Position numbers and translations under genes: made by a program
Shown: positions 13,253-63,450 of the stretch, piece by piece
Layout: every line of letters starts with the position of its first letter
How positions within the stretch are numbered: position 1 is the first letter of the stretch
Notes under the pieces: model-generated
Seen by the model: the letters and a program-made list of their open reading frames with translations, nothing else
What the model was told of the DNA's origin: nothing
Database searches by the model: none
Source: a virus
Taxonomy: Duplodnaviria; Heunggongvirae; Uroviricota; Caudoviricetes
DNA: 64,000 nt
IMG/VR virus record: IMGVR_UViG_3300049571_000258
Location: 70,186-134,185 of that record
Direction: 5' to 3' (one strand)

Positions 13253-13277
13253 CGTAGCACACGTCATGCGCTTTAAT
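13249..13277 (+). promoter_or_regulatory. promoter: TTGACG, 17 bp spacer containing palindrome gcacacgtcatgcgc, -10 TTTAAT; leaderless ATG 6 nt later
   Basis: Classic -35/-10 spacing; the spacer is one copy of the recurring GCACAC-N3-GTGTGC operator. Confidence 0.55.
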
Positions 13278-14171: not shown

Positions 14172-14192
14172 GCTCACGTCGTGTGCTACCGT
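14172..14192 (+). promoter_or_regulatory. promoter/operator: gctcacgtcgtgtgc + TACCGT; leaderless ATG at 14201
   Basis: Member of the recurring palindrome plus extended -10 motif. Confidence 0.5.
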
Positions 14193-16064: not shown

Positions 16065-16072
16065 CTGCACAA

Positions 16073-16144: not shown

Positions 16145-16155
16145 CTTCACCCCTT

Positions 16156-16230
16156 GGGCGGGTAGCTCAGTCGGGAGAGCGCCGTGTTCACACCGCGGGT
16201 CCGTCGGAGGTTCGATCCCTCCTCCGCCTA
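16156..16230 (+). tRNA. tRNA-Val: tRNA-Val (CAC)
   Basis: Acceptor gggcggg/tccgcct (GU at both ends), loop ttCACac, T-arm ggagg-ttcgatc-cctcc. Confidence 0.55.
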
Positions 16231-16270
16231 CTGCTTCCGCCGCCGCGCGTGCGAACCTCACGTCGTGCGC

Positions 16271-16642: not shown

Positions 16643-16652
16643 TCTTCCTGGC

Positions 16653-16723
16653 GGCGTGGTGCCGGAGCGGCCACGGGGCGGCCTGCAAAGCCGCAGACGA
16701 GGGTTCGAATCCCTCCCACGCCT
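16653..16723 (+). tRNA. tRNA-Cys: tRNA-Cys (GCA)
   Basis: Acceptor ggcgtgg/ccacgcc perfect, anticodon stem gcggc/gccgc, loop ctGCAaa, T-arm gaggg-ttcgaat-ccctc. Confidence 0.65.
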
Positions 16724-16732
16724 CTAGCGCCC

Positions 16733-16753
16733 GCACACGTCGTGTGCTACGGT
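16733..16753 (+). promoter_or_regulatory. promoter/operator: gcacacgtcgtgtgc + TACGGT, upstream of the Y-RNA-like element
   Basis: Perfect-half-site palindrome immediately followed by a TAnnnT -10 box. Confidence 0.5.
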
Positions 16754-16795
16754 GCATCCCGCCGGTTCGGAGTGACCCGGCAGACATAGACCTTA

Positions 16796-16933
16796 AGGCG
16801 GAGCGGGCCGACGGGCTGTCGGTTATCTCCTGTTAAGAGAGCGTTCCAGGTTCGAGTCCTGGCCCCCGCGCTCGTGGGGGTGGTGTAACGGCAACACGCT
16901 AACGGTCGACTCCCATTCCACGACCGCTCCGCC
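16796..16933 (+). ncRNA. yrlA: Y RNA (YrlA-like: tRNA-like module closed by a long terminal helix), the Rsr partner RNA
   Basis: 10-bp perfect long-range helix ggcggagcgg (16796-16805) with ccgctccgcc (16924-16933). It encloses a T-arm ccagg-TTCGAGT-cctgg, a D-arm-like gtgt-aacggca-acac and a GTT-loop hairpin, none of which folds as a normal tRNA. Sits between a promoter and the Ro60 gene. Confidence 0.55.
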
Positions 16934-16968: not shown

Positions 16969-18735
16969 ATGTCGTACCTACACCAGGTCAGCACACGCCG
17001 CACGCCGCAGCGTGAGCGCATCCCGGGGCGCACCGACCAGGTGCAGAACTCCGAGGGCGGCTTCGTCTGGGCGGTCGACAAGTGGACGCGCCTGGAGCGC
17101 TTCCTGATCCTCGGCGCGGAGGGCGGCACCTACTACATCGGCGAGGCCGACCTGACGAAGCAGAACGTCGGCGTGCTCGACGACTGCCTGACGGACGACC
17201 CGGCGCGCACGGTCTCCACGATCGTCGCCGTGTCGGCTGCTGGGCGCAACGCGAAGCAGGAGCCGGTCGTCTTCGCCCTGGCGTACGCCGCCGGGTTCCG
17301 CACCGAGGCCGCTCGTCAGGCGGCGCTGCGCGCGCTGCCTGACGTTGTGCGCACCGGCTCGCACATGGGCCTGTTCCTGTCCTACGTGCAGAACTTCCGC
17401 GGCTGGGGCCGCTCGCTGCGCCGCGCCGTCGGCCAGTGGTACGTCTCGCGCGACCGCATCACGGTCGACGAGGAGACCGGCGAGGCGGTCGTCGCCGAGC
17501 GCGCCGTCGACCGGGTCGCCTTCCAGATGGTCAAGTACCGCTCGCGCTACGGGTTCTCGCAGCGCGACGCCCTGCGCAAGGCGCACCCGGCCAACCGGGT
17601 GTCGTCGCGCAACCCGACGGTCGAGGGCCTGACGGAGGACCACGAGCGGCTGTACAACTGGGTCGTCAACGGTGGGGCCGACGAGCGTCTGCCGCAGGTC
17701 GTGCACGCCTTCGAGGCGGCGCAGGCGTCCGAGTCGCCTGCGCAGACGGCGAAGCTGATCGAGCGCTACGGCAACCTGCTGACGCGCGAGATGCTGCACA
17801 CCGAGCACCTGACCGACCGGGACGTCAACCGCGCCCTGGTCGAGGCAGGCATGCCGATGGGCGCGCTCGTGCGCAACCTGGCCAATCTGACGCGCTACGG
17901 CGTCTTCGAGGACCGCGCCTACGTCAAGCAGGTCGTCGCACAGCTGACCAACCCGGACGCGGTGCGCCGGTCGCGCCTGCACCCGTACGCGGTGCTGACG
18001 GCGCTGTGCACGTACGCGGCGGGCTACTCGATGACCAACCCCGAGCAGCGCTGGAACCCGGTCGCGCAGATCGTGGACGCGCTCGACGCAGCGTTCTACC
18101 TGTCGTTCGGCAACGCCGAGCCGACGGGGAAGCGCATCCGCCTGGCGCTGGACGTGTCCGGCTCGATGGGCCACCCGATCATCACCGGCTACCGCAAGGG
18201 CCGCTACGGCATGGAGGCGGTCCCGTCAGCCGTGTCGTGCGCGGCGGGCGCGGGGGCGATGGCGCTCGTGACGGCGAACATCGAGGACGACTACGACATC
18301 GTCGCGTTCTCGGACGGCCAGACCGGCGGCAGGTACATCGGCGGGTCGTGGGGCTACAACGGGGACGCGTCGGGCGCGGTGCTGGCACCGTGCACGATCT
18401 CGCCGCGCCAGCGTCTCGACGACGTCGTCGGGCAGATGAACCGGCTGAACTTCGGGCGCACCGACTGCGCGCTACCGATCCTGGACGCGGCGCAGCGAGG
18501 CCTGGAGTTCGACGCGTTCGTGGTCTACACCGACAACGAGACGTGGTTCGGCAAGGTCCACCCGACGCAGGCGCTCGCGGAGTACCGCCAGAAGACCGGG
18601 ATCCCGGCGAAGCTGGTCGTCGTGTCGATGGAGGCCAACCAGTTCTCGATCGCTCACCCCGACGACCCGGGCATGCTCGACGTCGTCGGGTTCGACCCGG
18701 CTGCCCCGGCGGTGATCGCGGACTTCCTGCGATGA
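16969..18735 (+). CDS. rsr: Ro60 ortholog Rsr (TROVE domain plus C-terminal vWA/MIDAS domain)
   Basis: SEGGFVWAVDKWTRLERFLILGAEGGTYYI and GRNAKQEPVVFALAY match the Ro60 N-terminal signature (human [29 protein letters not shown] / GRTTKQEPMLFALAI); C-terminal LALDVSGSM...T...D MIDAS motif. Confidence 0.9.
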   Translation: MSYLHQVSTRRTPQRERIPGRTDQVQNSEGGFVWAVDKWTRLERFLILGAEGGTYYIGEADLTKQNVGVLDDCLTDDPARTVSTIVAVSAAGRNAKQEPVVFALAYAAGFRTEAARQAALRALPDVVRTGSHMGLFLSYVQNFRGWGRSLRRAVGQWYVSRDRITVDEETGEAVVAERAVDRVAFQMVKYRSRYGFSQRDALRKAHPANRVSSRNPTVEGLTEDHERLYNWVVNGGADERLPQVVHAFEAAQASESPAQTAKLIERYGNLLTREMLHTEHLTDRDVNRALVEAGMPMGALVRNLANLTRYGVFEDRAYVKQVVAQLTNPDAVRRSRLHPYAVLTALCTYAAGYSMTNPEQRWNPVAQIVDALDAAFYLSFGNAEPTGKRIRLALDVSGSMGHPIITGYRKGRYGMEAVPSAVSCAAGAGAMALVTANIEDDYDIVAFSDGQTGGRYIGGSWGYNGDASGAVLAPCTISPRQRLDDVVGQMNRLNFGRTDCALPILDAAQRGLEFDAFVVYTDNETWFGKVHPTQALAEYRQKTGIPAKLVVVSMEANQFSIAHPDDPGMLDVVGFDPAAPAVIADFLR

Positions 18736-19102: not shown

Positions 19103-19653
19103 CCCCTGAGGTGGTCATCTGGACCGACGGCTCGTGCCCGAAGCCGGACGGTCCCGGCGGGTGGGCGGCGATCCTTCAGCGGCGCAGCGCCGACGGTGAG
19201 GTGTTGGCCGAGCGCGAGATCACCGGCGGCTCGTCGCGCACGACGAACAACCGTGCCGAGTTGATGGCGGTGATCGTCGGCCTGGAGGCGCTGAAGCGCC
19301 CATGTCGCGTGAGGATCGTCATCGACTCGCAGTACGTGATGCACGGCTTCACGCGCGGCTGGGTCCAGCAGTGGAAGCGCAACGGCTGGCGCACGAAGGG
19401 TGAGGCGAACCTGCTGACGCACGCAGGGGACCCGACGAACGTGGTGAAGAACCGCGACCTGTGGGAGCGCCTGGACGCGCTCGTGGCTGAGCATCAGGTC
19501 GAGTGGCATCACGTGAAGGGGCACCTGAAGCCGTCGCATGCCGACTGGACGGAGTGGCACGCCAACAACATCCGCTGCGACGAGCTAGCCGGTGCCGAGA
19601 CGAAGCGCATCAAGGAGGCGCTGACCTTGGTCGAAGCACAAGCTGTGTGCTAG
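19099..19653 (+). CDS. rnhA: ribonuclease HI
   Basis: IWTDGSC...GGWAA...TNNRAELMAV...HHVKGH...N..DELA, the canonical RNase H1 catalytic motifs; GTG in a GTGA overlap. Confidence 0.85.
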   Translation: MTPEVVIWTDGSCPKPDGPGGWAAILQRRSADGEVLAEREITGGSSRTTNNRAELMAVIVGLEALKRPCRVRIVIDSQYVMHGFTRGWVQQWKRNGWRTKGEANLLTHAGDPTNVVKNRDLWERLDALVAEHQVEWHHVKGHLKPSHADWTEWHANNIRCDELAGAETKRIKEALTLVEAQAVC

Positions 19654-19656
19654 GGT
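19636..19656 (+). promoter_or_regulatory. promoter/operator: gcacaagctgtgtgc + TAGGGT
   Basis: Palindrome plus -10 motif overlapping the end of rnhA; SD ggaggtagg and ATG 19684 downstream. Confidence 0.45.
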
Positions 19657-28175: not shown

Positions 28176-28222
28176 GTGCCAGACGTATCCAGAGGCCCGC
28201 TTCGGCGGGCCTCTCTCGTAAG

Positions 28223-28243
28223 CGCACGTCGTGCGCTAGCATG
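28223..28243 (+). promoter_or_regulatory. promoter/operator: gcgcacgtcgtgcgc + TAGCAT; leaderless ATG at 28249
   Basis: Perfect palindrome GCGCAC-gtc-GTGCGC abutting the -10 box; ATG 5 nt after the -10. Confidence 0.5.
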
Positions 28244-31242: not shown

Positions 31243-31282
31243 CATAGACTGTCATGGGGATGTGCTATGGTCTTTCCCCATG
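31243..31282 (+). promoter_or_regulatory. nested inverted repeats plus extended -10 TGcTATGGT overlapping the leaderless start of the XRE regulator gene
   Basis: ccatag...ctatgg and catgggga...tccccatg inverted repeats; TATGGT -10 lies 8 nt before ATG 31280. Confidence 0.45.
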
Positions 31283-31624
31283 AGCGATGAGTTCACAGAC
31301 CGCATCTCCGAGGCGCTGAAGCGCGCTCGCGAGACGGCGGGCATCTCTCAGACGGAGGCGGCGAAGCGGTCTGGCATCCACCAGACCACGATCTCCGACT
31401 ACGAGAACGGCCACTCCGAGCCACGGCTGCGGAACCTGGCCAGCCTCGCCGCTGCGTACGGCGCGAAGACCGGTGACCTGGTCGACGCGCTCAACCTCGA
31501 CCACACCTCCCTCGCGTCGGTCGCTGCGCGCATCGCGCCGGTCGCGTCGACCGAGGGGATGTCGCTGGAGGAGCGCTTGCGCTCCCTGGAGGCGCGCGTG
31601 GCCGACCTAGAGAACCGGAGGTAG
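31280..31624 (+). CDS. XRE-family HTH transcriptional regulator
   Basis: ISQTEAAKRSGIHQTTISDYENG, a Cro/C1-type HTH; C-terminal coiled coil. Confidence 0.7.
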   Translation: MSDEFTDRISEALKRARETAGISQTEAAKRSGIHQTTISDYENGHSEPRLRNLASLAAAYGAKTGDLVDALNLDHTSLASVAARIAPVASTEGMSLEERLRSLEARVADLENRR

Positions 31625-32901: not shown

Positions 32902-32922
32902 AGCACATGACATGTGCTACAG
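32902..32922 (+). promoter_or_regulatory. promoter/operator: gcacatgacatgtgc + TACAGT, upstream of the SPFH gene
   Basis: Palindrome GCACAT-gac-ATGTGC abutting a TAnnnT box; SD gaggaggg and TTG 32962 downstream. Confidence 0.5.
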
Positions 32923-32961
32923 TGCGCGCCGCACGCAACCTAATCCCAACGAGGAGGGACA

Positions 32962-36001: not shown

Positions 36002-36348
36002 GGGAGACCGACGGCCGACGCTTCCTGCTGCTGTACCCGGACGGCAGCGAGAAGTCCCTGCGCGACTTCCTGGCCGAGGCCGCGGAGGCGCACGGGCTGC
36101 CGCTTCAGGAGGGGTTCGAGATCGACGTGACCGACCTCTCTCACGACGGGACACTGCACGTCAAGGTCGATGGTCATCTGGCTCACACGATCGAGTGGGC
36201 GGACATGAAGGTGGTGAAGGTCGATGGGGTGGGCCGATCTCACGGTGAGGCAGCTACAGGACGGGATGGCGGTGACGTTGAGGCCGCCGGGCCGCTCGAT
36301 GGAGCCGACGATCAGGCACCGCGGCCTGGTTCACCTGGAGCCGTGTAG
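35998..36348 (+). CDS. hypothetical protein; 3' end uncertain (overlaps the next gene out of frame)
   Basis: GTG in a GTGA overlap; the first ~75 codons look real, the tail looks like read-through. Confidence 0.35.
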   Translation: MRETDGRRFLLLYPDGSEKSLRDFLAEAAEAHGLPLQEGFEIDVTDLSHDGTLHVKVDGHLAHTIEWADMKVVKVDGVGRSHGEAATGRDGGDVEAAGPLDGADDQAPRPGSPGAV

Positions 36349-36526
36349 TGCCGACGACGTCCAGAAGGGCGACATCGTCCTGTGCCGGGTGCACGGCACG
36401 ACGTTCCTACACCGCGTGAAGGGGCGCGACGCGCGCACTGGGCGTGTGCTGATCGGCTCAGACCGTGGGAGCATCAACGGGTGGACGAAGATGGTCTTCG
36501 GTCGAGTCACACGGGTGGAGAACTGA
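36224..36526 (+). CDS. S24 LexA/UmuD-like peptidase domain protein
   Basis: GRSMEPTI (Ser-nucleophile GDSMxP motif) and downstream KGDIVL...HRVKG (Lys general base region). Confidence 0.65.
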   Translation: MGWADLTVRQLQDGMAVTLRPPGRSMEPTIRHRGLVHLEPCSADDVQKGDIVLCRVHGTTFLHRVKGRDARTGRVLIGSDRGSINGWTKMVFGRVTRVEN

Positions 36527-37537: not shown

Positions 37538-38064
37538 TGAGGTGGCGCATCCTCGCCGCGATCGCGTTGGTCGCGCTGCTGGCGGGCATCGTCGTCGCCA
37601 AGGCGCAGGCGCGCACGATGATCGTGGGCGACTCGCTTGCGGTGGGGATGTCGCCCTACCTGAAGGCACGGTTGCCGGGCCGGGTGGACGTGGACGCGCG
37701 CGTCGGCCGCCCGTTGCGCGAGGGCATGTGGCGCCTGGACTCGCTCGGCCGGGTGCGCGTCCTCGTGGTCTCGCTGTTCACCAACGACGATCCACACAAC
37801 ACGGCCGACCTGCGTCGGGCGATCGCCAACGCCAAGGGGCACGCTGACTGCGTCGTGTGGGGCACGGTGTCGCGCCCGCCGGTTGGCGGGAAGTCCTATG
37901 AGGCCGCCAACAGGATCATCCGGCGCAACACACACGAGGTGCGTTGGGCGCGCTACGTCCAGCGCCATCCCGGCGTTCTCGGGACGGATCGAGTGCACCC
38001 TGGCCCGTCCGGCTACCGGCAGCTGGCGAAGCTGTACCGCGCCGCCGTGCGCACTTGTGCGTAG
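37537..38064 (+). CDS. secreted SGNH/GDSL-family hydrolase
   Basis: Signal peptide; block I IVGDSLAVG (GDS); block V DRVHPGPSGY (DxxH). Confidence 0.7.
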   Translation: MRWRILAAIALVALLAGIVVAKAQARTMIVGDSLAVGMSPYLKARLPGRVDVDARVGRPLREGMWRLDSLGRVRVLVVSLFTNDDPHNTADLRRAIANAKGHADCVVWGTVSRPPVGGKSYEAANRIIRRNTHEVRWARYVQRHPGVLGTDRVHPGPSGYRQLAKLYRAAVRTCA

Positions 38065-38085
38065 CGCATGTCGTGTGCTATAGTC
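38065..38085 (+). promoter_or_regulatory. promoter/operator: gcgcatgtcgtgtgc + TATAGT
   Basis: Starts 1 nt after the SGNH stop; a hairpin terminator follows ~55 nt downstream. Confidence 0.5.
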
Positions 38086-40260: not shown

Positions 40261-41814
40261 GTGGCCACCGGCACAGCTAACGCGCTGCGTGACGAGATCG
40301 AGAACGCCGCACAGGATGAGTCCATCGACCCGTCCGCGCGCCTGCGCATGCTCTCCGCGCTTCGCGGCGACCTCGTGTCTGTGCTCGGAGCGTGCGACCA
40401 GTACATCGGCGCGCTAGAGCGCCACGCACAGTCCCTCGCCGCGGCGCAGCGCGAGAACGTGGAGATCGCGCGCCGGTTCGCCTCGCTGCGCGAGGGCATG
40501 ATCGAGGAGGGTGTCGCGACGGGCGACGAACTCGATCTCGTGGGCATCCTCTCCGAGGCCGAGCTAGACCAGCTGGAGGAGGAGGGCCTGCTCCTGGAGG
40601 CCGTTGGATACCTGCGCAAGAAGTGGGATGAGGCGCTGCACCCGCGTGGTCGTGGCGGCCAGTTCGTTGCCAAGCCGGGGGCGCCCGAGGCGCCGAAGAT
40701 CCGCAAGTCCACCTACGGCACCGACTACCAGGCGGTCGGGCCGGGCGGCGAGATCGCGGTTCGTGGCACGCGCAAGGAGGCCGAGGACGCGCTGAAGGGG
40801 ATCCGCTCGACGCAAGTCAAGCGCGATCCGGGCACGGGCAAGGGCGACACGGGCACGAAGCCTTATCAGGACCCGACCACCACCGAACTGCTCACGGACC
40901 CGGAGACGGTGCGCGAGGCGCGCAAGATGATCCTGTCCGGCAACCCGACTACGCGTGACCGCTACGCCACGGTGAAGGACGGGAAGGTCGTCTACGACAG
41001 GTCTCGCCAGAAGCTGCACAAGGAGATCATCGAGAAGTTGCTCACCGAGGACGGCGAGCACCAGGCGCAGGAGCATCCGGTGGCGTTCTTCACCGGCGGC
41101 GGAATGGCCAGCGGCAAGGGTGGCGTCGTGGACGCCATGAACGGCGGCAAGGGTCACGAGTGGAAGCCGCAGGACGCCGTCACGATCGACCCCGACAAGG
41201 TCAAGGCGCTGATGCCCGAGTTCGCGCAGCTGACCAACGCGGGCGACCCGGAGGCCAACATTCGCGTCTCTGATGAGGCGTGGGACATCTCGCAGGCGCT
41301 GGCCGCGGAGGTCCGCAAGCGCAAGTACAACGTGATCGTGGACGGCGTCGGCAACACATCGGCCGACATGGTGAGGAAGCGCGTCGACTCCTACGTGAGC
41401 GCCGGGTACACCCCACGCGCGGTGTATGTTGCGACGCCCGCGCCGGTCGCGGTCCGCAACGCGCGGATGCGCATGCAGAAGGCGATCAAGGCCGGGAAGC
41501 TGGAGTCGATCCGCTACATCCCCGACGAGATCATGTACGACACGCACGCGCGCGTGTCGAAGGTGTTCCCCGACATCTTGAAGATGTGGCCCGGCGAGAT
41601 CGAGTTGTACGACACGAACACGTGGGATGAGGAGAAGAAGGTCTTCCACACCCCGCGCCTGCTGTTGAAGAAGTCGGGCAAGGGGGAGGAGCCGGAGATC
41701 TTGGACAACGACACCTACGAGAAGTTCCTGGAGAAGGCGCGCAACCCGTACGTCGAGTGGTTCGTGCCTCCGCCGGAGGGTTCTGACGACGAGGGTTCGG
41801 AGGTCGCGGTCTGA
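40261..41814 (+). CDS. HPR-motif protein with degenerate P-loop kinase-like domain (zeta-toxin / polynucleotide-kinase-like)
   Basis: WDEALHPRGRGGQFVAKPG peptide; FFTGGGMASGKGGV (Walker-A-like GxxxxGKG); ...IVDGVGNT...R....GY...VYVATP...R...R, as in the zeta/UNAG-kinase fold. GTG at 40261 preceded by TAGACT. Confidence 0.55.
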   Translation: MATGTANALRDEIENAAQDESIDPSARLRMLSALRGDLVSVLGACDQYIGALERHAQSLAAAQRENVEIARRFASLREGMIEEGVATGDELDLVGILSEAELDQLEEEGLLLEAVGYLRKKWDEALHPRGRGGQFVAKPGAPEAPKIRKSTYGTDYQAVGPGGEIAVRGTRKEAEDALKGIRSTQVKRDPGTGKGDTGTKPYQDPTTTELLTDPETVREARKMILSGNPTTRDRYATVKDGKVVYDRSRQKLHKEIIEKLLTEDGEHQAQEHPVAFFTGGGMASGKGGVVDAMNGGKGHEWKPQDAVTIDPDKVKALMPEFAQLTNAGDPEANIRVSDEAWDISQALAAEVRKRKYNVIVDGVGNTSADMVRKRVDSYVSAGYTPRAVYVATPAPVAVRNARMRMQKAIKAGKLESIRYIPDEIMYDTHARVSKVFPDILKMWPGEIELYDTNTWDEEKKVFHTPRLLLKKSGKGEEPEILDNDTYEKFLEKARNPYVEWFVPPPEGSDDEGSEVAV

Positions 41815-42122: not shown

Positions 42123-42488
42123 ATGGTCCCAGCGACGCTCGAAGCGGCACCCGCTGCCGTTGATCCCCCCGTTCAGGCGGCGGTCCCGCGCAAGAAGGCC
42201 TGCCCCGTCTGTCGTGCTATCCCCAACTGCAACCACACGCCCCCGCATCAACTGCGCGTGATGCTGGCGATCTCCCGGCGCCACGGGATCGTGTTCGACG
42301 ACGCCTGGGAGAAGGCGTGGATCCGCGTGCGCTGGCCGCACGACACCGAGCACCGGCGCGACTACAAGAAGATCCTGCTGGAGCAGTTGGACGTCTGGCG
42401 CAGTGCCTACGCCCGCATGGGCGCCGTGAACGAACGACTCAACGCCGTCTACTCGCTGCTGATCTACGCGTCGGGCGAGGGCGGCTGA
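42123..42488 (+). CDS. hypothetical protein (121 aa)
   Basis: ORF track. Confidence 0.5.
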   Translation: MVPATLEAAPAAVDPPVQAAVPRKKACPVCRAIPNCNHTPPHQLRVMLAISRRHGIVFDDAWEKAWIRVRWPHDTEHRRDYKKILLEQLDVWRSAYARMGAVNERLNAVYSLLIYASGEGG

Positions 42489-42862
42489 CCGGCGGGGTAC
42501 CACCGCAGCGGCGCGTGCGGTAGGGGGGCGTGACTCTCTAGCTCGCCGCGGTCGCGCAGTCGGCTGAGCGTCACGCGGGTGCTCTGCGCCGGGAAGCCGA
42601 GCGCCGCGGAGATGTCAGACGCGAGCGCACCGGGGTTGGCGGTGACGTAGTCGCGGATCGCGAGGGTCTTCTGGCCGGTCGACCGACCAGCCCCGCCGAC
42701 AGGACGCTTCTCGTCATTGCCTCGCAGCGCGCTCATGGCGGCGCGCACCTGGCGAGCCTGTGCGTGGAGGTCGGTCAAGGTCTTCTCGTGTGCCTTGATC
42801 TCCGCTTCGATCTCGGTGAGGTTGTCGGCGAGGTCTTGGACGTGCTCGGCGATGGTCTTCAC
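42464..42862 (-). CDS. winged-HTH regulator, candidate repressor; the only minus-strand gene in the window
   Basis: High GC3 in the minus frame; GTG at 42862; C-terminal KTLAIRDYVTANPGALASDISAALGFPAQSTRVTLSRLRDRGELE (wHTH); transcribed divergently from the shared operator at 42878-42892. Confidence 0.65.
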   Translation of the reverse strand: MKTIAEHVQDLADNLTEIEAEIKAHEKTLTDLHAQARQVRAAMSALRGNDEKRPVGGAGRSTGQKTLAIRDYVTANPGALASDISAALGFPAQSTRVTLSRLRDRGELESHAPLPHAPLRWYPAGQPPSPDA

Positions 42863-42870
42863 GCCGGTGC

Positions 42871-42898
42871 AGAGTAGCGCATGACGTGTGTTAGGATC
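42871..42898. promoter_or_regulatory. bidirectional promoter pair sharing one palindromic operator (TAGGAT on +, TACTCT on -)
   Basis: The + strand reads gcgcatgacgtgtgt-TAGGAT then GTG 42904. The - strand reads acacacgtcatgcgc-TACTCT then GTG 42862. Both are leaderless. Confidence 0.55.
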
Positions 42899-42903
42899 CC
42901 CCC

Positions 42904-43332
42904 GTGAGCGTGATCCCCCTTCGCCTGCGCCACGCGCTGACGTTCTACCACCTCCGCGCGAACCGCAGTCCCTCGTCGAAGTTGGCCATCTGCTCGTGCG
43001 GGTGGCGCTGCTGGCCGTTCCGCAAGACGAGGTGGAAGACACGCGTGCGCTCGCTCGTGTGCGCTGTGCACTTCGGGCACGTGTGGGACGAGCCGTCTCC
43101 GGTGATGGTCGGGCCGGTCGGCTTCGAGGCGACGCTGGAGAGCATCGTTGGCCTGCACAAGCAGTGCGAGCGCTGCTGGACGGTCGTCGAGGTCTCGGTC
43201 GACGACGCGGTCGAGCAGTGGGTCGACGAGCACACCGGGCAGCCGGGCTACTGGCAGCAGATCAGGGTCGGCGATGAGATGGCCGATCACTGGCGGCAGC
43301 TGTGGCTGGACCACGTCACGGAGGACGACTGA
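42904..43332 (+). CDS. Cys-rich hypothetical protein (142 aa)
   Basis: Leaderless GTG 5 nt after the -10; CSCGWRC...C..H...C..C; good GC3. Confidence 0.6.
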   Translation: MSVIPLRLRHALTFYHLRANRSPSSKLAICSCGWRCWPFRKTRWKTRVRSLVCAVHFGHVWDEPSPVMVGPVGFEATLESIVGLHKQCERCWTVVEVSVDDAVEQWVDEHTGQPGYWQQIRVGDEMADHWRQLWLDHVTEDD

Positions 43333-43461
43333 CGGTGCGGGTCGGCGAACGGCTTGATGTGCTGCGAGCGCCGAAGTACGACGTCGAGAAGCATGCGGCG
43401 TGGGACACTGCACGATCTGTGGCGAGGCGGGGCACAACAAGCGGACCTGTGGGAGGTCACG

Positions 43462-43878
43462 ATGACCGTCAAGCAGCGCAAGAAGAAGGCCCGGCGCGTC
43501 TACCGAGCGTGCAAGACCATGACGAAGATGAACCGCCCGTACGTCTACGGCGGCGGGCACAAGCCGTGGCGCTTCTGGCGAGCGCACGAGGGGGTCGACT
43601 GCTCGGCCTCTGTCTGCCGGGTGCTCGACAAGACGGGGATCATCAACATCGACATGCCCGCGACGTCCGGCGCGATGATGTCGTGGTTCGAGCCGGGGCC
43701 GGGCAGGTGGGTGACGATGTACGCGTCGCCGGAGCACGTGTGGCTGAAGTTCCGCGGCCTGGGGATCTACGTCCGCTTCGACACGTCGCCGTGGGGCTGG
43801 GGTCGACCGGGGCCGCGGCTGCGCATGGGCTGGCGCTCGACGGCGGGGTTCGTCGCACGACACCCGAAGGGGCTGTGA
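43462..43878 (+). CDS. NlpC/P60-family cysteine peptidase (cell-wall hydrolase-like)
   Basis: YVYGGG-x6-GVDCSASVCRVL (YxxGG...DCSG.V motif) and downstream His (PEHVW); SD gggagg plus ATG. Confidence 0.7.
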   Translation: MTVKQRKKKARRVYRACKTMTKMNRPYVYGGGHKPWRFWRAHEGVDCSASVCRVLDKTGIINIDMPATSGAMMSWFEPGPGRWVTMYASPEHVWLKFRGLGIYVRFDTSPWGWGRPGPRLRMGWRSTAGFVARHPKGL

Positions 43879-44207
43879 TGTCGGACATCGAGACCGAAGT
43901 TCTCGTACGTGCTCGGGAGATCTTCGAGGCGCGCCCATCCCACCACACGTCACAGCGCCACGCGCCCGGTGCCTATGGAGAGACCCCTCAAGAGGTCACG
44001 CCCGAGTGGGCGCTTGGGATGGCCGTGACAGAGGTCGACGGTGATCTGGACCTTCACGAGCGCGTTTTCAGGGACGCCTACCGACGCCTCATGAACGCGC
44101 TGCCGACCGATCCGCCCCATCGCGTGTGTCCGATCAACACCTACTGTGCCGCCCACACGACGGACGAGATGTTGCGGGTGTTCGACGTCGCGATCTCGAA
44201 GATCTAG
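43878..44207 (+). CDS. hypothetical protein (110 aa)
   Basis: ATG in a GTGATG overlap; in frame with ORF 43302..44207. Confidence 0.45.
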   Translation: MSDIETEVLVRAREIFEARPSHHTSQRHAPGAYGETPQEVTPEWALGMAVTEVDGDLDLHERVFRDAYRRLMNALPTDPPHRVCPINTYCAAHTTDEMLRVFDVAISKI

Positions 44208-44228
44208 CGCACGACATGTGCTAGAGTG
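44208..44228 (+). promoter_or_regulatory. promoter/operator: gcgcacgacatgtgc + TAGAGT
   Basis: Directly after a stop codon; SD agagaggtagag plus ATG 44297 downstream. Confidence 0.5.
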
Positions 44229-44296: not shown

Positions 44297-44776
44297 ATGA
44301 CCCTACGAGAGCGAGTGCGTCAGTTCCTCGGCGAGACACGCATCCCCGATCCAGTGGACTGCGCCGAAGCGTTTCTAGAGACGCTGACCACCGAAGACTT
44401 GCGCGAGGCGCTACGCGAGTCCCTGCCGGATGTCTTCCGTGCGGAGATGAGCAAGGATCGCATGCGACCCGAGCCGCGCAACAGGAGCGCGAAGTGGAAG
44501 ATGGTCACACGCGGGTGGCTGGAGCGCCAGCACCTCCTCGCCGGTGGTGAGGCCGTGATGCTGTTGGACGCGACCGCTGAGCGCCTGCGCGCCGCGGCGG
44601 CCTACCACTTCGAGAAGGCCGCCCGCGAGGCGTCCACCGGTGACGCCTACGCCGAGATCGCCTCCGAGATGGAGTCGCGCGGCGTCAACACCGTGCGCGA
44701 CTTCGTGGAAGTCGTCGGCGAGGACGCGTTCATCGCCCTCTACAAGCCGCGCGTCGAGATGGAGGCCGCGGCATGA
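44297..44776 (+). CDS. hypothetical protein (159 aa)
   Basis: ORF track. Confidence 0.55.
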   Translation: MTLRERVRQFLGETRIPDPVDCAEAFLETLTTEDLREALRESLPDVFRAEMSKDRMRPEPRNRSAKWKMVTRGWLERQHLLAGGEAVMLLDATAERLRAAAAYHFEKAAREASTGDAYAEIASEMESRGVNTVRDFVEVVGEDAFIALYKPRVEMEAAA

Positions 44777-45699
44777 CCGCCTTGCTCGACCAGAAGCGAC
44801 GCGACACCCAAACGTCCGTTGTCGAGCGCGTCGCCGACCAAGGATCCCACGACGCCCCTGGAAGGATCGTCGGCGGCGCAAAATCTTCCCCCGGCCAGAC
44901 GCTGAGCGACACCCAATCACTTCCCGCCGGGGACCATCTTGGCGTCGGCCATGCTCACACCGACATCCAAAATTCGTTCGCCGACGCCTCGTACGCAGAC
45001 CTCCTGTTCTGGGCCGCCACGGTCGACGATCTGGAGAAGGCGCGCATCGCGGCCGAGAACCGCTTGCGCAGTTGGGAGGCCGAGCCGTCCAACGAGTTCG
45101 ACACCGCGAAGGCGCTCGCCGGTGACCCGAAGCTCGCTGCCGCGCAAGCAACGGTCGACGGCCTCCGTCTCCTGGAGGTCGACGCGATCAAGTCGCTGGA
45201 GAAGGCGATGAAGCAACACCCGCTCGGCGCGTTCGTGAAGGCGACGCCCGGCCTGGGGTTGAAGCAGACCGCCCGCCTCCTCGCTGCGATCGGGCCGGTC
45301 ACGCACTACGAGGACGACGAGGGCATCTACGAGCGCACCGTCGGCGGCTTGTGGCGCTACTGCGGGATGGACGTGCGCGACGGCGAAGCCCCGCGGCATC
45401 GCAAGGGCGAGTTCGGGGGCTGGAACGACGAGGCGCGCATGCGTGTCCGCCTGGTGGCCGAGTCGTGCATCAAGGCGCGCACTAGCCCCTACCGCGACGC
45501 CTACGACCGGGCGCGCGAGAAGTACGCCGACGCGAAGCACAAGGTCCCGTGCGTGCGCTGCGGTCCGGCCGGGAAGCCCGCGCAGCCGGGGTCTGACCTG
45601 AGCGATGGGCACAAGCACGCCCGCGCCCTGCGGATCGTCGCGAAGTCCGTCCTGCGTGACCTGTGGCGTGTGGCGAACGGGTACCCGCCGAAGTTCTGA
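44773..45699 (+). CDS. protein resembling the C-terminal Tnp domain of IS110-family recombinases, but lacking a recognisable RuvC/DEDD N-terminal domain and the SG catalytic serine
   Basis: Coiled coil, then HPLGAFVKATPGLGLKQTARLLAAIG...RTVGGLWRYCGM...RHRKGE...EARMRVRLVAESCIK, which follows the hP..l.siPGiG...aGl.P...G...R..l.. pattern of the IS110 C-terminal domain. Confidence 0.4.
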   Translation: MTALLDQKRRDTQTSVVERVADQGSHDAPGRIVGGAKSSPGQTLSDTQSLPAGDHLGVGHAHTDIQNSFADASYADLLFWAATVDDLEKARIAAENRLRSWEAEPSNEFDTAKALAGDPKLAAAQATVDGLRLLEVDAIKSLEKAMKQHPLGAFVKATPGLGLKQTARLLAAIGPVTHYEDDEGIYERTVGGLWRYCGMDVRDGEAPRHRKGEFGGWNDEARMRVRLVAESCIKARTSPYRDAYDRAREKYADAKHKVPCVRCGPAGKPAQPGSDLSDGHKHARALRIVAKSVLRDLWRVANGYPPKF

Positions 45700-46439: not shown

Positions 46440-46460
46440 GCTCACAACGTGTGCTATAGT
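46440..46460 (+). promoter_or_regulatory. promoter/operator: gctcacaacgtgtgc + TATAGT
   Basis: Immediately after tRNA-Tyr; followed ~80 nt later by a strong terminator; no ORF in between. Confidence 0.5.
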
Positions 46461-47119: not shown

Positions 47120-47140
47120 GCTCACGATGTGTGCTACGGT
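47120..47140 (+). promoter_or_regulatory. promoter/operator: gctcacgatgtgtgc + TACGGT
   Basis: Followed by SD ggagaggtaggtag plus ATG 47181. Confidence 0.5.
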
Positions 47141-56239: not shown

Positions 56240-56914
56240 ATGCAGAGCACAGTTGAACTAGAGTTCTGTTCGCGTACTGATCCGCGTTACGTGGAGATGC
56301 GCGATCGACACTACATTCCCAATCGAGGCTCCCAGGGACAGCAGCTGCACTTCATCGTATGGGATGGTCCTATCCGTGCGGGCATCATCTCGGCTGGCTC
56401 TGGCGTCTACGCAGTCAAGAGCCGGGACGAGTTCTTTGGCATTCCCAGCGACAAGCGCGAGCGCGAAACGCTGTGGCTGCCAGCGATCGTGAACAACACG
56501 GTGTTTCGGCTAGAGAAGACTCGTCCCAACCTCGGGACTCAAGTGCTGTCACGCTGGCAGCGCGTGACTCGAAAGCTCTGGCCGCTGCTGTACAACGTGG
56601 ATGTGATCGGGTTCGAGACGTTCATCGTCGAGAACCCTACGCGTCGAGGAGCGCTGTACAAGGCGGCGAACTGGACCCATGTCGGCACAACTGTGGGGCG
56701 CACCAAGTCGCACTCGACCGCAGGAGGCATGAAGGACAAGCGCGATCATCTTGACACGGAGCCAAAGATGGTCTACTGCGCTGTGGCAGGCAAGAAGTTG
56801 CGCGTTCCTTCGCGGGAGTACGTTTCTAGCTGGAGGCGGTCTACTCCCGAGGAGCGTGCGGCAGACAAGCGGCTACGCGATCTGCGTAGCGAACTCAACG
56901 GTAGGAGGTTCTGA
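56240..56914 (+). CDS. hypothetical protein on a low-GC (~55%) island
   Basis: ORF track 224 aa; base composition clearly differs from its flanks; no confident motif. Confidence 0.55.
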   Translation: MQSTVELEFCSRTDPRYVEMRDRHYIPNRGSQGQQLHFIVWDGPIRAGIISAGSGVYAVKSRDEFFGIPSDKRERETLWLPAIVNNTVFRLEKTRPNLGTQVLSRWQRVTRKLWPLLYNVDVIGFETFIVENPTRRGALYKAANWTHVGTTVGRTKSHSTAGGMKDKRDHLDTEPKMVYCAVAGKKLRVPSREYVSSWRRSTPEERAADKRLRDLRSELNGRRF

Positions 56915-56960: not shown

Positions 56961-56989
56961 TTGACGCAGCACACGACGTTAGCTATACT
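56961..56989 (+). promoter_or_regulatory. promoter TTGACG, 17 bp spacer with gcacacgacgttagc, TATACT
   Basis: Canonical -35/-10; the spacer carries the left half-site GCACAC of the recurring operator. Confidence 0.5.
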
Positions 56990-60351: not shown

Positions 60352-60373
60352 AGCACACGACGTGTGCTATCAT
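60348..60373 (+). promoter_or_regulatory. promoter/operator: TTGAAG ... gcacacgacgtgtgc + TATCAT
   Basis: Perfect half-sites GCACAC/GTGTGC; SD gagaggtag plus ATG 60433 downstream. Confidence 0.5.
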
Positions 60374-61370: not shown

Positions 61371-61661
61371 GTGAAGACGTCAGAGGTCCTGCGCGCCGCG
61401 CGCGAGCAGCTGTCAGACCCGGCGAAGTGGTGGAAGGGCGAGCGCCCGCAGGCGGAGGGGACCGAGTGCGCGTTCACGGTGATGTACGGCGGCGGCCACG
61501 GCCTGGAGGCGTCACGGCATCTGCGTGACGCACTGGGCGTGACGAGCCTCGGTGCCCTGTTTCGCTGGAACGACGACCCGGCGACCACGCACGACGACCT
61601 GATGGCGCTCTACGATCGAGCCATCGAGATCGCCGAGGCCGAGGAGGGGGTGGCGGCATGA
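61371..61661 (+). CDS. small paralog family member (GWxQ...C..GAL...WND)
   Basis: VLRAAREQLSDPAKWWKGE...TECAFTVMYGG...RWNDDPATTHDDLMALYDRAIEIAE. Confidence 0.55.
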   Translation: MKTSEVLRAAREQLSDPAKWWKGERPQAEGTECAFTVMYGGGHGLEASRHLRDALGVTSLGALFRWNDDPATTHDDLMALYDRAIEIAEAEEGVAA

Positions 61662-61930
61662 AGACGGCGCGCGAGATCTTGCGCGAGGCGGCGGACCTGA
61701 TCGAGCGGGACGGCTGGGTGCAGGGCGTCTACCACTCCGAAGACGGGCGTCACTGCGCGGCCGGTGCGCTGAGTCGCGCACTGGCCGACGTGGACGACCC
61801 CGTCGCCTACGAGACGTACTCACTGCTGCTGGACGAGATCGGGTGGGTGGGCGTCCCGATGTGGAACGACACGGTCGCGACGTCGGGCCAGCAGGTGGTC
61901 GACACTCTGCGCAGGGCGGCGGAGCGATGA
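61658..61930 (+). CDS. small paralog family member
   Basis: AREILREAADLIERDGWVQGVYHSEDGRHCAAGALSRAL...MWNDTVATSGQQVVDTLRRAAE. Confidence 0.6.
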   Translation: MKTAREILREAADLIERDGWVQGVYHSEDGRHCAAGALSRALADVDDPVAYETYSLLLDEIGWVGVPMWNDTVATSGQQVVDTLRRAAER

Positions 61931-62337
61931 TCGACCTGCTGAGGGCGCGACGCGACGCGAGGAGGGCGCAGCGACAGGCGCGCGAGGCGCAAGCTACTGC
62001 GCGCCTCGCGGAGATCGCTGCCGACGAGGCGGAGGAGGCCCGTGACCGGGCGCTCGACGCAGCGGCTCGGACGGCGCTGCTGCTGGCGGCTGAGTACATC
62101 GAGCGCCACGGCTGGATCCAGGGCAGGATGGCGTCTCCCGAGGGCCTGTGCGCGATCGGGGCGCTGTCGAAGGCGTGCGACTCTTCAGCGCTCCGCAACG
62201 ACATCTACTTCGCGGCGGTGCGGCGTCTGCGCGGCGAGATCGACGAGGGCAACGTCGGGCAGTGGAACGACCAGCCGGGCATGCGCAAGGAGTTTGTGGT
62301 GGCGGCGCTGCGCAAGGCCGCCAGACTCACGACGTGA
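61927..62337 (+). CDS. small paralog family member with N-terminal coiled-coil extension
   Basis: ATGA overlap; ...AAEYIERHGWIQGRMASPEGLCAIGALSKA...QWNDQPGMRKEFVVAALRKAA. Confidence 0.55.
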   Translation: MIDLLRARRDARRAQRQAREAQATARLAEIAADEAEEARDRALDAAARTALLLAAEYIERHGWIQGRMASPEGLCAIGALSKACDSSALRNDIYFAAVRRLRGEIDEGNVGQWNDQPGMRKEFVVAALRKAARLTT

Positions 62338-62373
62338 GCTAGACTGCCTGAACGAAACGACTAGGAGGTAGGC

Positions 62374-62697: not shown

Positions 62698-63133
62698 GAC
62701 GAAGAAGGCGCGTCGGTTGCGCTGGGCGCGCGCGCTGGAGTCGGGTGAGTTCCAGCAGGGCCGGTCGGCGCTGTCGGAGGATGACCGCTACTGCTGCCTA
62801 GGGGTAGCGTGCGAACTCATGGCGCGCGACGGTCTCCTGGAGCGCGAGGTGTCGTCGTGGGGCGGCGTGACGTACACGGACCCCAACGACCCGAACGACT
62901 ACGAAGTCGCGAACCTGCCGAAGGTCGTACAGGACTACTATGGGCTGAGCGGCGAGGACCCACGGGTCGACCTGCTCCATCTGCCCGAGGGCGCGATCCA
63001 CCCACGCTCGTCCGTGGACCGGAGGCTGCGCAACGCCAATTCGCTCGTGTCGCTCAACGACGGCTATGAGGCCTCGTTCGCGACGATCGCGCGCGTCATC
63101 CGCCTGGAGCCGGAAGGGATGGTGAAGCGATGA
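62690..63133 (+). CDS. small paralog family member (divergent)
   Basis: GTG start; ...GEFQQGRSALSEDDRYCCLGVACEL... Confidence 0.5.
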   Translation: MAETKKARRLRWARALESGEFQQGRSALSEDDRYCCLGVACELMARDGLLEREVSSWGGVTYTDPNDPNDYEVANLPKVVQDYYGLSGEDPRVDLLHLPEGAIHPRSSVDRRLRNANSLVSLNDGYEASFATIARVIRLEPEGMVKR

Positions 63134-63450
63134 GGGCGCGCGAGATCCTGAATGGCGCCGCCGACGTCCTGGAGAGCGCCGGGTGGTGCCAGCACGCGTA
63201 CGCGCGCACGGCGGATGGCGTGCCGGTCGCCTCCGGTCACGACGAGGCGGTCGAGTTCTGCGCCGTCGGCGCGATGAACCGCACCATCAAGGACACGTCG
63301 CCCGACGCTGGCGAGTACGGCGTCGCGCTCGACATGCTGGAGATCGCGATCGGCGGCTCGTACACGATCACGGAGTGGAACGACCGCGAAGGTCAGACCG
63401 CGCGGAACGTGATCTCGACGCTGAGGAGGGCGGCGGGGTGGCCGTCGTGA
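63130..63450 (+). CDS. small paralog family member
   Basis: AREILNGAADVLESAGWCQHAYARTADG...EFCAVGAMNRT...TEWNDREGQTARNVISTLRRAAG. Confidence 0.6.
   Translation: MRAREILNGAADVLESAGWCQHAYARTADGVPVASGHDEAVEFCAVGAMNRTIKDTSPDAGEYGVALDMLEIAIGGSYTITEWNDREGQTARNVISTLRRAAGWPS

What the first reader, a model, noticed from the sequence alone, without database searches (positions are those of the whole stretch)
42464..43332. Divergent, operator-sharing leaderless promoter pair with the window's only minus-strand gene (a wHTH protein): a candidate genetic switch
A single copy of the palindrome at 42878-42892 is flanked by a -10 on each strand. TAGGAT drives a Cys-rich 142-aa protein on the + strand (GTG 42904). 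TACTCT drives a 132-aa winged-helix protein on the - strand (GTG 42862). Both start codons sit 5-8 nt from their -10 boxes. This back-to-back arrangement around one operator is the textbook layout of a repressor/antirepressor or CI/Cro-type decision point. The wHTH protein is the obvious candidate for the factor that recognises the palindrome present at the other 13 or more promoters.
Basis: partly seen in the sequence, partly recalled or inferred. Interest (0 to 1): 0.8.

Follow-up and report, generated by a model that had tools for sequence, protein, structure and literature searches.

The report
Two back-to-back phage promoters sharing one operator
An uncultured high-GC phage has a real pair of divergent promoters built around one copy of its genome-wide 15-bp dyad, but the reverse-strand DNA-binding gene it drives is a recent, lineage-specific insertion, so it is probably not the master regulator of that dyad.

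Summary
The dyad GCGCATGACGTGTGT lies at 42877-42891, one base left of the stated coordinates. It is flanked by TACTCT on the minus strand (42876..42871) and TAGGAT on the plus strand (42892-42897). GTG starts follow 8 and 6 nt downstream, and neither has a Shine-Dalgarno sequence. The dyad plus -10 composite occurs 14 times on the plus strand against 0.09 expected. This is the only copy with a proper -10 on both sides, and it abuts the window's only minus-strand gene. That gene has coding-type codon composition. It encodes an N-terminal coiled coil and a weak MarR/ArsR-like winged helix.

The same dyad promoters occur in a family of uncultured 110-134 kb, 68-69% GC phage contigs. In four related lineages the upstream 121-aa gene is followed directly by a dyad promoter and a forward gene, with no reverse gene. 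The winged-helix protein has no homologue in billions of proteins or in 285 kb of dyad-bearing relatives. The window also encodes a much clearer XRE-type HTH protein.

Most likely an ancestral dyad promoter was joined by an inserted orphan regulator gene that uses the dyad's other face. The two promoters are then mutually exclusive and co-regulated. There is no evidence for lysogeny or a CI/Cro-type switch.

The parts
42464..42862 (-). The window's only minus-strand gene. It encodes a 132-aa orphan protein with an N-terminal coiled coil (about residues 4-51) and a C-terminal MarR/ArsR-like winged helix (about residues 62-111). It starts at GTG 42862.
   Evidence: GC-frame plot. Pfam, PHROG and PDB hits. 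Exhaustive phmmer search. AF2 secondary structure H4-51, H62-75, H77-88, H94-104. The sources' gene calls. Only identical copies exist elsewhere.
42871..42876 (-). Minus-strand -10 hexamer TACTCT, 8 nt upstream of GTG 42862.
   Evidence: Sequence. It is the only minus-strand dyad match in the window that keeps TAnnnT. It is retained in relative L001, whose contig begins CAGAGTA.
42877..42891 (.). Single shared dyad or operator, GCGCATGACGTGTGT. With the flanking TA on each side it spans 19 bp, 42875-42893.
   Evidence: The 32-nt core 42870-42901 is identical in L001, while the adjacent coding DNA differs at many positions.
42892..42897 (+). Plus-strand -10 hexamer TAGGAT with an extended -10 (TGT), 6 nt upstream of GTG 42904.
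   Evidence: Relative L003 has the equivalent TAGCGCACGCCGTGTGC-TACGGT-N7-GTG.
42904..43332 (+). Gene for a 142-aa protein with a basic N-terminal half and conserved Cys/His residues (C30, C32, C53, H59, C88, C91). Function unknown.
   Evidence: GC3 of 0.94. Alignment with the L001 and L003 homologues. No Pfam, PHROG or NCBIfam family. AF2 model unusable, pLDDT 42.6.
42123..42488 (+). Conserved 121-aa gene that converges on the wHTH gene and overlaps its 3' end by 25 nt. No terminator lies between them.
   Evidence: ORF list. Folding shows no significant hairpin. Homologues occur in L003, L017, L019 and L034, each followed directly by a dyad promoter.
13257..13277 (+). Dyad promoter. -35 TTGACG, 17-bp spacer, -10 TTTAAT. 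Leaderless, with ATG 6 nt downstream.
14172..14192 (+). Dyad promoter. Leaderless, with ATG 8 nt downstream.
16733..16753 (+). Dyad promoter 9 nt after tRNA-Cys. It drives tRNA-Asn and the Ro60-like gene.
19636..19656 (+). Dyad promoter with a leader and Shine-Dalgarno sequence.
28222..28242 (+). Dyad promoter, leaderless. It heads the gene run that contains the XRE gene.
32903..32923 (+). Dyad promoter with a leader.
38064..38084 (+). Dyad promoter heading the primase / zeta-kinase / 121-aa gene run that reads toward the wHTH gene in antisense.
44207..44227 (+). Next dyad promoter downstream. It is conserved in L001 and L002, with changes only at degenerate positions.
46440..46460 (+). Dyad promoter 3 nt after tRNA-Tyr.
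47120..47140 (+). Dyad promoter ahead of the 47190-55999 gene block.
56969..56989 (+). Dyad promoter. -35 TTGACG, 17-bp spacer, -10 TATACT.
60353..60373 (+). Dyad promoter with a perfect dyad.
62325..62345 (+). Dyad promoter with a leader.
31280..31624 (+). Rival candidate dyad binder. A 114-aa XRE-family HTH_3 protein with a C-terminal coiled coil, encoded downstream of the 28222 dyad promoter.
   Evidence: Pfam HTH_3 at 3.7e-17 among the window proteins. Identified by phmmer against 434 repressor, P22 C2, SinR and ClgR sequences written from memory. Sequence.

Best explanation
This is an ancestral dyad-type promoter to which a reverse gene has been added.

The phage belongs to an uncultured family of about 110-134 kb genomes with 68-69% GC. 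It transcribes its operons from host sigma-A-type promoters of the form TGn-TAnnnT. Some of these also carry TTGACG 17 bp upstream. A 15-bp dyad, GCnCAY-N3-RTGnGC, fills the spacer up to the -10. That is the position where a bound dimer would occlude RNA polymerase.

At 42877 this promoter drives the conserved Cys/His-rich gene without a leader. In the window's lineage only, a 386-bp segment (42489-42874) lies between the conserved 121-aa gene and the dyad. It carries an orphan coiled-coil/wHTH gene and ends in TACTCT. The same place in relative L003 holds a short spacer with a terminator hairpin.

The result is two -10 boxes 15 bp apart. Each -10 sits in the other promoter's -35 zone. The predicted transcription starts are about 40 bp apart.

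Four consequences are inferred, not shown:
1. RNA polymerase can occupy only one of the two promoters at a time.
2. Whatever dimer binds the dyad controls both promoters together.
3. wHTH transcription meets read-through from the upstream plus-strand operon head-on, because no terminator intervenes.
4. The wHTH protein is an accessory, lineage-specific regulator expressed with the dyad regulon. It is not the family's dyad-binding factor. That factor is unidentified. It could be the XRE protein at 31280-31624, a protein encoded outside the window, or another conserved small protein.
For: Anatomy and statistics of the pair.

The element is a true dyad and not only an extended -10. The -10-distal half carries 8.5 bits and the proximal half 9.2 bits. 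Some copies have TTGACG at a 17-bp spacer.

The same motif is dense in IMG/VR contigs of 110-125 kb. These share a portal at 52% identity, the zeta-toxin-domain protein at 35% and the 121-aa protein at 35-41%.

In L003, L017, L019 and L034 the 121-aa homologue is followed by hairpins and/or a dyad promoter and a forward gene, with no reverse gene. In L003 the reverse-side hexamer TACGCG does not fit TAnnnT.

The wHTH protein has only identical copies among 5.8 billion proteins. The exhaustive search gave only generic marginal wHTH hits. There were no hits in IMG/VR or in 285 kb of relatives.

The Cys-rich gene and its leaderless start are conserved. No significant hairpin lies at the convergent gene junction. 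The exact dyad variants searched, with TAnnnT, are absent from actinobacterial genomes, which gives no support for a host operator.
Against: A reverse-oriented DNA-binding gene abutting an operator is the classic signature of an autoregulated repressor. A coiled-coil dimer with two wHTH domains also suits a dyad.

Only part of each related contig could be sampled. A very divergent wHTH analogue could escape phmmer or tblastn.

The relatives closest to the window, L001 and L002, keep the TACTCT box, but their contigs end there, so the wHTH gene could not be checked in them.

The XRE protein also has no detectable homologue in the sampled relatives, so no candidate binder is positively supported.

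There are no transcript or binding data of any kind.
Confidence: 0.5

Rival explanations
1. The wHTH protein is the dimeric repressor that recognises the dyad at all promoters. It autoregulates from the shared copy and forms a repressor/antirepressor or CI/Cro-like decision switch with the Cys-rich gene.
For: It is the only reverse gene in the window and it starts 8 nt from a -10 fused to the dyad. A coiled coil plus wHTH fits a two-fold symmetric site. The switch copy is the only window copy with T rather than C at the last dyad base. A weaker site would suit late self-repression. The 32-nt core is identical in L001.
Against: The dyad system is conserved in four related lineages that lack the gene at this locus. 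No homologue exists anywhere, including in 285 kb of dyad-bearing relatives. A symmetric site centred about -20 for both promoters would shut off the repressor's own gene as strongly as its partner. There is no integrase or prophage evidence. The Cys-rich partner shows no Cro or antirepressor features.
Confidence: 0.2
2. The dyad is not a repressor operator. It is a positive promoter-specificity element, bound by a phage activator or polymerase-appropriating dimer that recruits host polymerase to promoters lacking a -35. Under this model the divergent pair is co-activated rather than co-repressed.
For: Most copies lack a recognisable -35. The motif precedes every operon type seen in the window, including tRNA, replication and large structural or lysis genes. 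It is conserved across very divergent phages.
Against: Copies with TTGACG-N17-TAnnnT and an extended -10 should already be strong promoters without help. A dimer lying across -13 to -27 on a 17-bp spacer is the usual geometry for occlusion. MerR-type activation in that position normally goes with 19-20 bp spacers; this rests on established knowledge and was not tested here.
Confidence: 0.2
3. The reverse -10 is a coincidence of the TA-flanked dyad. The minus ORF is either transcribed from elsewhere or is not a functional gene.
For: Dyads with TAnnnT on both sides but no reverse gene do occur in relatives, at L011 9816-9842 and in L017. Six of the window's dyads carry a reverse-side TA. The protein is an orphan with only sub-threshold domain hits.
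Against: The coding-type GC1/2/3 pattern is confined to 42464-42862 and stops exactly at the GTG. Consistent wHTH signals come from four independent searches. The start lies 8 nt from the -10, like other leaderless genes of this phage. It is the only reverse -10 in the window and coincides with the only reverse gene. The sequence is identical in independent assemblies.
Confidence: 0.1

Closest known systems
Divergent regulator/target gene pairs with overlapping promoters and a shared dyad operator. Examples are tetR/tetA of Tn10 and the many actinobacterial TetR- or MarR-family regulators with leaderless divergent transcripts (own knowledge).
   Same: Back-to-back promoters. One symmetric site overlaps both core promoters. 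One partner is a small wHTH or HTH protein. Transcripts are leaderless, as is usual in Actinobacteria.
   Different: Here the dyad is not private to the pair. It is one of at least 15 copies of a genome-wide promoter element. The regulator gene is absent from related phages that keep the dyad, so regulator-operator cognacy is doubtful.
Genome-wide repressor sites of temperate actinophages. These are the L5/Bxb1 cluster A stoperators (PMC9283540, PMC6550527) and the conserved inverted repeats at phiC31 early promoters (own knowledge).
   Same: Many copies of one short motif are spread over the genome in one orientation relative to transcription. The motif is tied to promoters or intergenic regions of an actinophage.
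   Different: Stoperators are asymmetric sequences bound by a monomeric repressor, and they also stop elongation (PMC9283540). Here the site is a 15-bp dyad fixed in the promoter spacer. The genome is about 134 kb with no sign of lysogeny, and no cognate repressor is identified.
CI/Cro-type switches, such as lambda OR, and single-operator variants in telomere phages (PMC4488713, title and abstract only).
   Same: Divergent promoters around operator DNA, with a reverse-oriented DNA-binding gene.
   Different: There is one operator copy rather than an array of graded sites. The second gene is a Cys/His-rich protein with no HTH. There is no integrase or prophage context. The 'repressor' gene is dispensable in relatives.
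Symmetric bidirectional promoters of bacteria (Warman et al. 2021, as summarised in PMC10268837; see also PMC12825309).
   Same: Divergent initiation arises from sequence symmetry, and the two polymerase binding modes exclude each other.
   Different: In those promoters a single near-symmetric -10 serves both strands and the TSSs are 18 bp apart (PMC10268837). Here two separate -10 hexamers flank a 15-bp dyad and the predicted TSSs are about 40 bp apart.

Membership tests
CI/Cro-type lysis-lysogeny switch | Temperate genome with an integrase or partition module, and occurrence as a prophage. | tested here: not met
   No integrase family appears among the 102 window proteins in the Pfam summaries shown. 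PHROG 4285, annotated as a transposase, at 44773-45699 is the only mobility-type hit. The dyad plus -10 is absent from 185,579 species genomes except for 5 single hits in non-actinobacterial MAGs. The other half of the roughly 134-kb genome could not be read.
CI/Cro-type lysis-lysogeny switch | Two divergently transcribed DNA-binding regulators that compete for shared operators. | tested here: inconclusive
   The minus-strand gene has a weak wHTH. The plus-strand gene has no recognisable DNA-binding family, and its AF2 model is unusable.
CI/Cro-type lysis-lysogeny switch | Multiple adjacent operators of graded affinity between the two promoters. | tested here: not met
   One dyad lies in the 41-bp intergenic space. 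The other 3-mismatch matches nearby, at 42743 and 43155, are at chance frequency.
MarR/ArsR-type winged-helix regulators | A significant match to a wHTH family model. | tested here: inconclusive
   MarR_2 scores 18.8 bits against a cut-off of 27, and PaaX 19.9 against 24.8. PHROG 1687 scores 2.8e-5. YgaV (3cuo) scores E = 0.1. AF2 predicts three helices after the coiled coil but with pLDDT near 50. Foldseek finds nothing below E = 1.
Autoregulated repressor with cognate operator | The regulator gene co-occurs with its operator across related genomes. | tested here: not met
   The dyad is present in L003, L017, L019, L034 and many IMG/VR loci. The gene is absent at the syntenic site and undetected elsewhere.
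Autoregulated repressor with cognate operator | The protein binds the operator. | not testable with these tools
   This needs EMSA, footprinting or ChIP.
Genome-wide phage operator regulon (stoperator / phiC31 CIR-like) | Many oriented copies of one motif tied to transcription units. | tested here: met
   There are 14 plus-strand composite sites against 0.09 expected. All lie upstream of genes or tRNAs.
Genome-wide phage operator regulon (stoperator / phiC31 CIR-like) | A phage-encoded repressor that recognises the motif. | not tested
   The candidates are the wHTH protein, the XRE protein at 31280-31624 and proteins encoded outside the window. None could be discriminated.
Symmetric bidirectional promoter (Warman type) | A single shared, near-symmetric -10 with divergent TSSs about 18 bp apart. 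| tested here: not met
   There are two separate -10 hexamers 15 bp apart, and the start codons are 41 bp apart. The definition is taken from PMC10268837.

The most novel reading that the evidence does not exclude
The orphan coiled-coil/wHTH protein is a recently captured repressor that targets the family-wide promoter dyad. That would give this one lineage of an otherwise lytic 110-134 kb phage family a way to silence its whole genome, as pseudolysogeny or a carrier state. It could also shut down superinfecting relatives that use the same promoters. The shared-dyad divergent promoter would then be its self-limiting expression point.
Probability: 0.12. Interest if true: 0.75.

Novelty: new member of a known kind. 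Interest (0 to 1): 0.42.

Why it matters
Divergent promoter pairs with a shared operator are common, so the locus alone is not surprising.

Three things are useful.
1. It is a clean natural example of a gene gaining a promoter by landing on the back side of a symmetric operator. It needs only four more bases to complete a -10.
2. It exposes a conserved dyad-in-spacer promoter type. This type defines a previously undescribed family of uncultured high-GC phages of about 110-134 kb, and its binding factor is unknown.
3. It shows that 'the only reverse gene next to the palindrome' is not sufficient evidence for a master regulator. Comparative absence of the gene argues against that reading.

If the wHTH protein did bind the dyad, it would be a tractable case of a lytic phage family acquiring global self-silencing.

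Tried and rejected
These attempts led nowhere or were rejected:
- Near-identity DNA and protein searches against cultured phages gave no relatives. The window is from a novel uncultured phage.
- Searching metagenome contigs for the exact switch core gave 0 hits. The Cys-rich protein alignment found no relative in viral or metagenome collections.
- The AF2 model of the wHTH protein has mean pLDDT 64, with the C-terminal domain near 50. Foldseek against the PDB gave nothing below E = 1, so the model is not informative.
- The AF2 model of the Cys-rich protein has pLDDT 42.6 and is unusable.
- Looking for the XRE protein in IMG/VR returned only an unrelated 41% GC phage without the dyad.
- A host-operator hypothesis was tested by scanning 185,579 species genomes for four dyad variants plus TAnnnT. 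Only 5 scattered single hits in non-actinobacterial MAGs came back, so it has no support. A degenerate host site is not excluded.
- An RNA-structure role for the palindrome was considered. The 37-nt fold has a z-score of -0.13, and Rfam finds only tRNAs.
- An antitoxin role for the wHTH protein, paired with the nearby zeta-toxin-domain protein, was considered. The AbiEi_4 hit is only E = 0.097. The genes are on opposite strands and separated by two genes. It was not pursued.
- My first PWM iteration mixed the two strands because the motif is palindromic. It was replaced by the explicit composite pattern.
- Literature searches found no description of this motif.
Full report
**What is in the sequence**

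The window has 67.8% GC and about 100 genes, all on the plus strand. It carries 20 tRNA genes. It also encodes a portal, a RecA-like recombinase, a DnaG primase, a Ro60/TROVE protein and a zeta-toxin-domain protein. Its proteins are recorded in a JGI metagenome on a contig of 134,185 bp. Cultured phages give no DNA match and only remote protein matches. It is therefore an uncultured, novel, large, actinophage-like genome.

At the finding's coordinates the sequence reads cagagTA-GCGCATGACGTGTGT-TAGGATccccccGTG.
- On the plus strand, TAGGAT (42892-42897) is followed after 6 nt by GTG 42904.
- On the minus strand, TACTCT (42876..42871) is followed after 8 nt by GTG 42862.
- Neither start has a Shine-Dalgarno sequence.

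**Is it more than chance?**

GCACAC-N3-GTGTGC with up to one mismatch occurs 8 times against 0.4 expected.

The empirical composite GCNCAYNNYRTGNGYTANNNT, which joins the dyad to a TAnnnT -10, gives 14 plus-strand sites with up to 1 mismatch. Shuffles give 0.09. The palindrome also produces six minus-strand matches. Five of them fail exactly at the last T of the -10. Only 42871-42891 keeps TAnnnT.

The -10-distal half of the dyad carries as much information (8.5 bits) as the proximal half (9.2 bits). The element is therefore a true dyad and not only an extended -10, although its right arm does supply the TGn of an extended -10.

Where a -35 is visible, it is TTGACG at a 17-bp spacer (sites 13257 and 56969). 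The dyad therefore fills the promoter spacer.

Four of the 15 plus-strand promoters are leaderless, with starts 6-8 nt after the -10. The others have leaders with GGAGG-type ribosome-binding sites or drive tRNAs.

**The two genes**

The minus ORF 42464-42862 shows the coding pattern of this genome in its own frame: GC3 of 0.80-0.90 and low GC2. The pattern ends at the GTG. No other coding-like minus-strand ORF lies in any gap of the window.

The protein has a long N-terminal helix (residues 4-51, pLDDT about 90) followed by three short helices. Residues 65-111 give weak but concordant wHTH signals:
- MarR_2 and PaaX below the Pfam cut-offs.
- PHROG 1687 at 2.8e-5.
- ArsR-type YgaV at E = 0.1.
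- Marginal exhaustive-search hits that are MarR/IclR/TrmB proteins.

The 142-aa plus-strand protein has no family. It is conserved in two other lineages from its first residues, with C30, C32, C53, H59, C88 and C91 invariant. That supports the GTG start and the leaderless layout.

**Comparative evidence**

Contigs L001 and L002 encode a Cys-rich protein 81% identical to the window's. They begin inside the switch core. The 32 nt CAGAGTAGCGCATGACGTGTGTTAGGATCCCC are identical to the window, while the adjacent coding DNA differs at many positions. The reverse -10 is thus retained, but the contigs end there.

L003 encodes a 121-aa protein homologue at 65% identity and a Cys-rich homologue at 37%. 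After the upstream gene's stop comes a strong hairpin (z = -3.3). Then comes TAGCGCACGCCGTGTGC-TACGGT-N7-GTG, which starts the Cys-rich homologue. There is no reverse gene. The reverse-side hexamer, TACGCG, does not fit TAnnnT.

Searching IMG/VR with exact dyad variants recovered many loci from contigs of 110-125 kb with 68-69% GC. The composite motif is dense and oriented with the genes in these loci. They are distant relatives: portal 52%, zeta-toxin-domain protein 35%, 121-aa protein 35-41%.

In L017, L019 and L034 the 121-aa homologue is again followed by hairpins and/or a dyad promoter and a forward gene. The reverse gene is therefore missing from four lineages that keep the dyad system.

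The wHTH protein has only identical copies among 5.8 billion proteins. It has no specific hit in an exhaustive search of 1.84 billion representatives. It has none in IMG/VR and none in 285 kb of dyad-bearing relatives.

Four dyad variants with TAnnnT gave five isolated hits in non-actinobacterial MAGs among 185,579 species genomes. There is thus no evidence for a host regulon or for prophages carrying the motif.

**Other candidate binders**

A scan of all window proteins found one strong classical regulator. It is the 114-aa XRE/HTH_3 protein at 31280-31624 (E = 3.7e-17), which has a C-terminal coiled coil and lies downstream of the 28222 dyad promoter. It too has no detectable homologue in the sampled relatives. 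No candidate is positively supported, and half of the genome was not available.

**Most likely mechanism**

Shown:
- One dyad with two -10 boxes 15 bp apart.
- Start codons 41 bp apart.
- Each -10 lies where the other promoter's -35 would be.
- The wHTH gene converges on the upstream 121-aa gene and overlaps it by 25 nt, with no significant hairpin between them.

Inferred:
- RNA polymerase can use only one of the two promoters at a time.
- A dimer bound to the dyad would occlude both.
- Read-through from the 38064 operon collides with wHTH transcription.
- The plus-strand promoter is ancestral.
- The segment 42489-42874, which carries the wHTH gene, is a lineage-specific insertion. It completed a second promoter by supplying TACTCT next to the TA-flanked dyad.

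I therefore read the wHTH protein as an accessory regulator expressed with the dyad regulon, not as the family's dyad-binding factor. My confidence in this is about 0.5.

The dyad might instead be an activator site, also about 0.2. That changes the sign of control but not the architecture.

The reverse -10 might be fortuitous, about 0.1. Dyads with TAnnnT on both sides and no reverse gene do exist in relatives, in L011 and L017. Here, however, the reverse -10 coincides with the only reverse gene.

**Comparison with known systems**

The layout works like overlapping divergent regulator/target promoters with a shared dyad, such as tetR/tetA and actinobacterial MarR or TetR pairs (own knowledge). 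It fails the co-occurrence test expected of a cognate regulator-operator pair.

It resembles the genome-wide repressor sites of temperate actinophages. Those stoperators are asymmetric sequences bound by a monomeric repressor (PMC9283540, PMC6550527). Here there is no sign of lysogeny.

It is not the 18-bp symmetric bidirectional promoter type (PMC10268837).

It does not meet the defining features of a CI/Cro switch.

**Verdict**

This is a new member of a known kind. Interest is moderate (0.42), mainly for two reasons: the evolutionary route by which the reverse gene gained a promoter, and the unexplained conserved dyad promoter of an undescribed phage family.

Noticed in passing
IMG/VR loci L006, L008, L009, L011, L017-L027, L029-L047 (contigs 3300036832_001166, 3300036832_000855, 3300036846_000555, 3300021560_000013 and others): The same dyad plus -10 promoter (most often GCGCACGATGTGTGC-TAnnnT) is dense in uncultured viral contigs of 110-125 kb with 68-69% GC. 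These share only a few distant proteins with the window. It looks like a family-wide promoter type whose binding factor is unknown.
   Followed up: partly
window 117-131 (context 97-165): A dyad copy, GCACAAGACGTGTGC, has no adjacent -10. It sits inside a longer inverted repeat (cccgaccgc...ggtcggg) about 19 nt upstream of TAGGCT-N6-GTG at 159. The dyad is therefore near -35 rather than in the spacer.
   Followed up: no
L001 1-40, L002 1-20, and the 2486-bp contig of sample 3300056388: Three independent assemblies of the P0003-type variant all begin within about 20 nt of the dyad, while their right ends differ. This suggests an assembly-graph branch, meaning strain-level variation, immediately left of the switch core.
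   Followed up: partly
window 31280-31624: An XRE-family HTH_3 protein of 114 aa with a C-terminal coiled coil. It is the only strong classical DNA-binding regulator found among the window's proteins.
   Followed up: partly
window 43333-43461: A 127-129 nt segment absent from L001 and L002. It contains a micro-ORF ending ...GHCTICGEAGHNKRTCGRSR*, a CX2CX4HX4C zinc-knuckle pattern. Its stop overlaps the ATG of the next gene.
   Followed up: partly
window 43878-44207: A 109-aa gene that is deleted in L001 and L002 except for its last 40 or so nt. Its TAG stop supplies the TA that flanks the 44207 dyad.
   Followed up: partly
L011 9816-9842; L017 229-251: Dyads with TAnnnT on both sides but no reverse gene. 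In L017 the full dyad lies 8 bp further upstream, and only a right half-site abuts the -10 (TAGCACACATCGTGCGCATGTGTGCTATCCT).
   Followed up: yes
window 16969-18735, next to the tRNA cluster 15991-16871: A Ro60/TROVE plus vWA protein lies beside a tRNA cluster and downstream of a dyad promoter. A Y-RNA-like partner might be present. Rfam at gathering threshold found only tRNAs.
   Followed up: partly
window, positions not mapped (candidates 61371-61661, 61658-61930, 63130-63450): Seven window proteins match DUF6197 (best E = 3e-21), which suggests a paralogous small-gene family. Which ORFs match was not determined; the listed candidates rest only on similar N-terminal sequences.
   Followed up: no
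window 36224-36526: A 100-aa protein carrying an S24-peptidase-type motif (GRSMEP ... K) and no DNA-binding domain. One window protein matches Peptidase_S24 at E = 4.9e-5, and this ORF was picked by motif search.
   Followed up: no
window 56240-56914: A 224-aa plus-strand ORF with unusually low GC3 (0.71 against about 0.92 elsewhere). It lies in an 889-bp stretch where the GC3-based gene caller found no gene, just upstream of the 56969 promoter. It may be a recent acquisition.
   Followed up: no
window 42123-42488 and homologues in L003, L017, L019, L034: A small protein with the motifs CPVC...C.H and RVRWPHDxEHR. It is among the few window proteins with a detectable homologue in the sampled relatives. 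In each lineage it lies immediately upstream of a dyad promoter. Function unknown.
   Followed up: partly
window 40261-41814: A 517-aa protein with a coiled-coil N-terminus and a zeta-toxin/AAA_33 kinase domain (E = 9e-25). A homologue at 35% identity occurs in L017.
   Followed up: no
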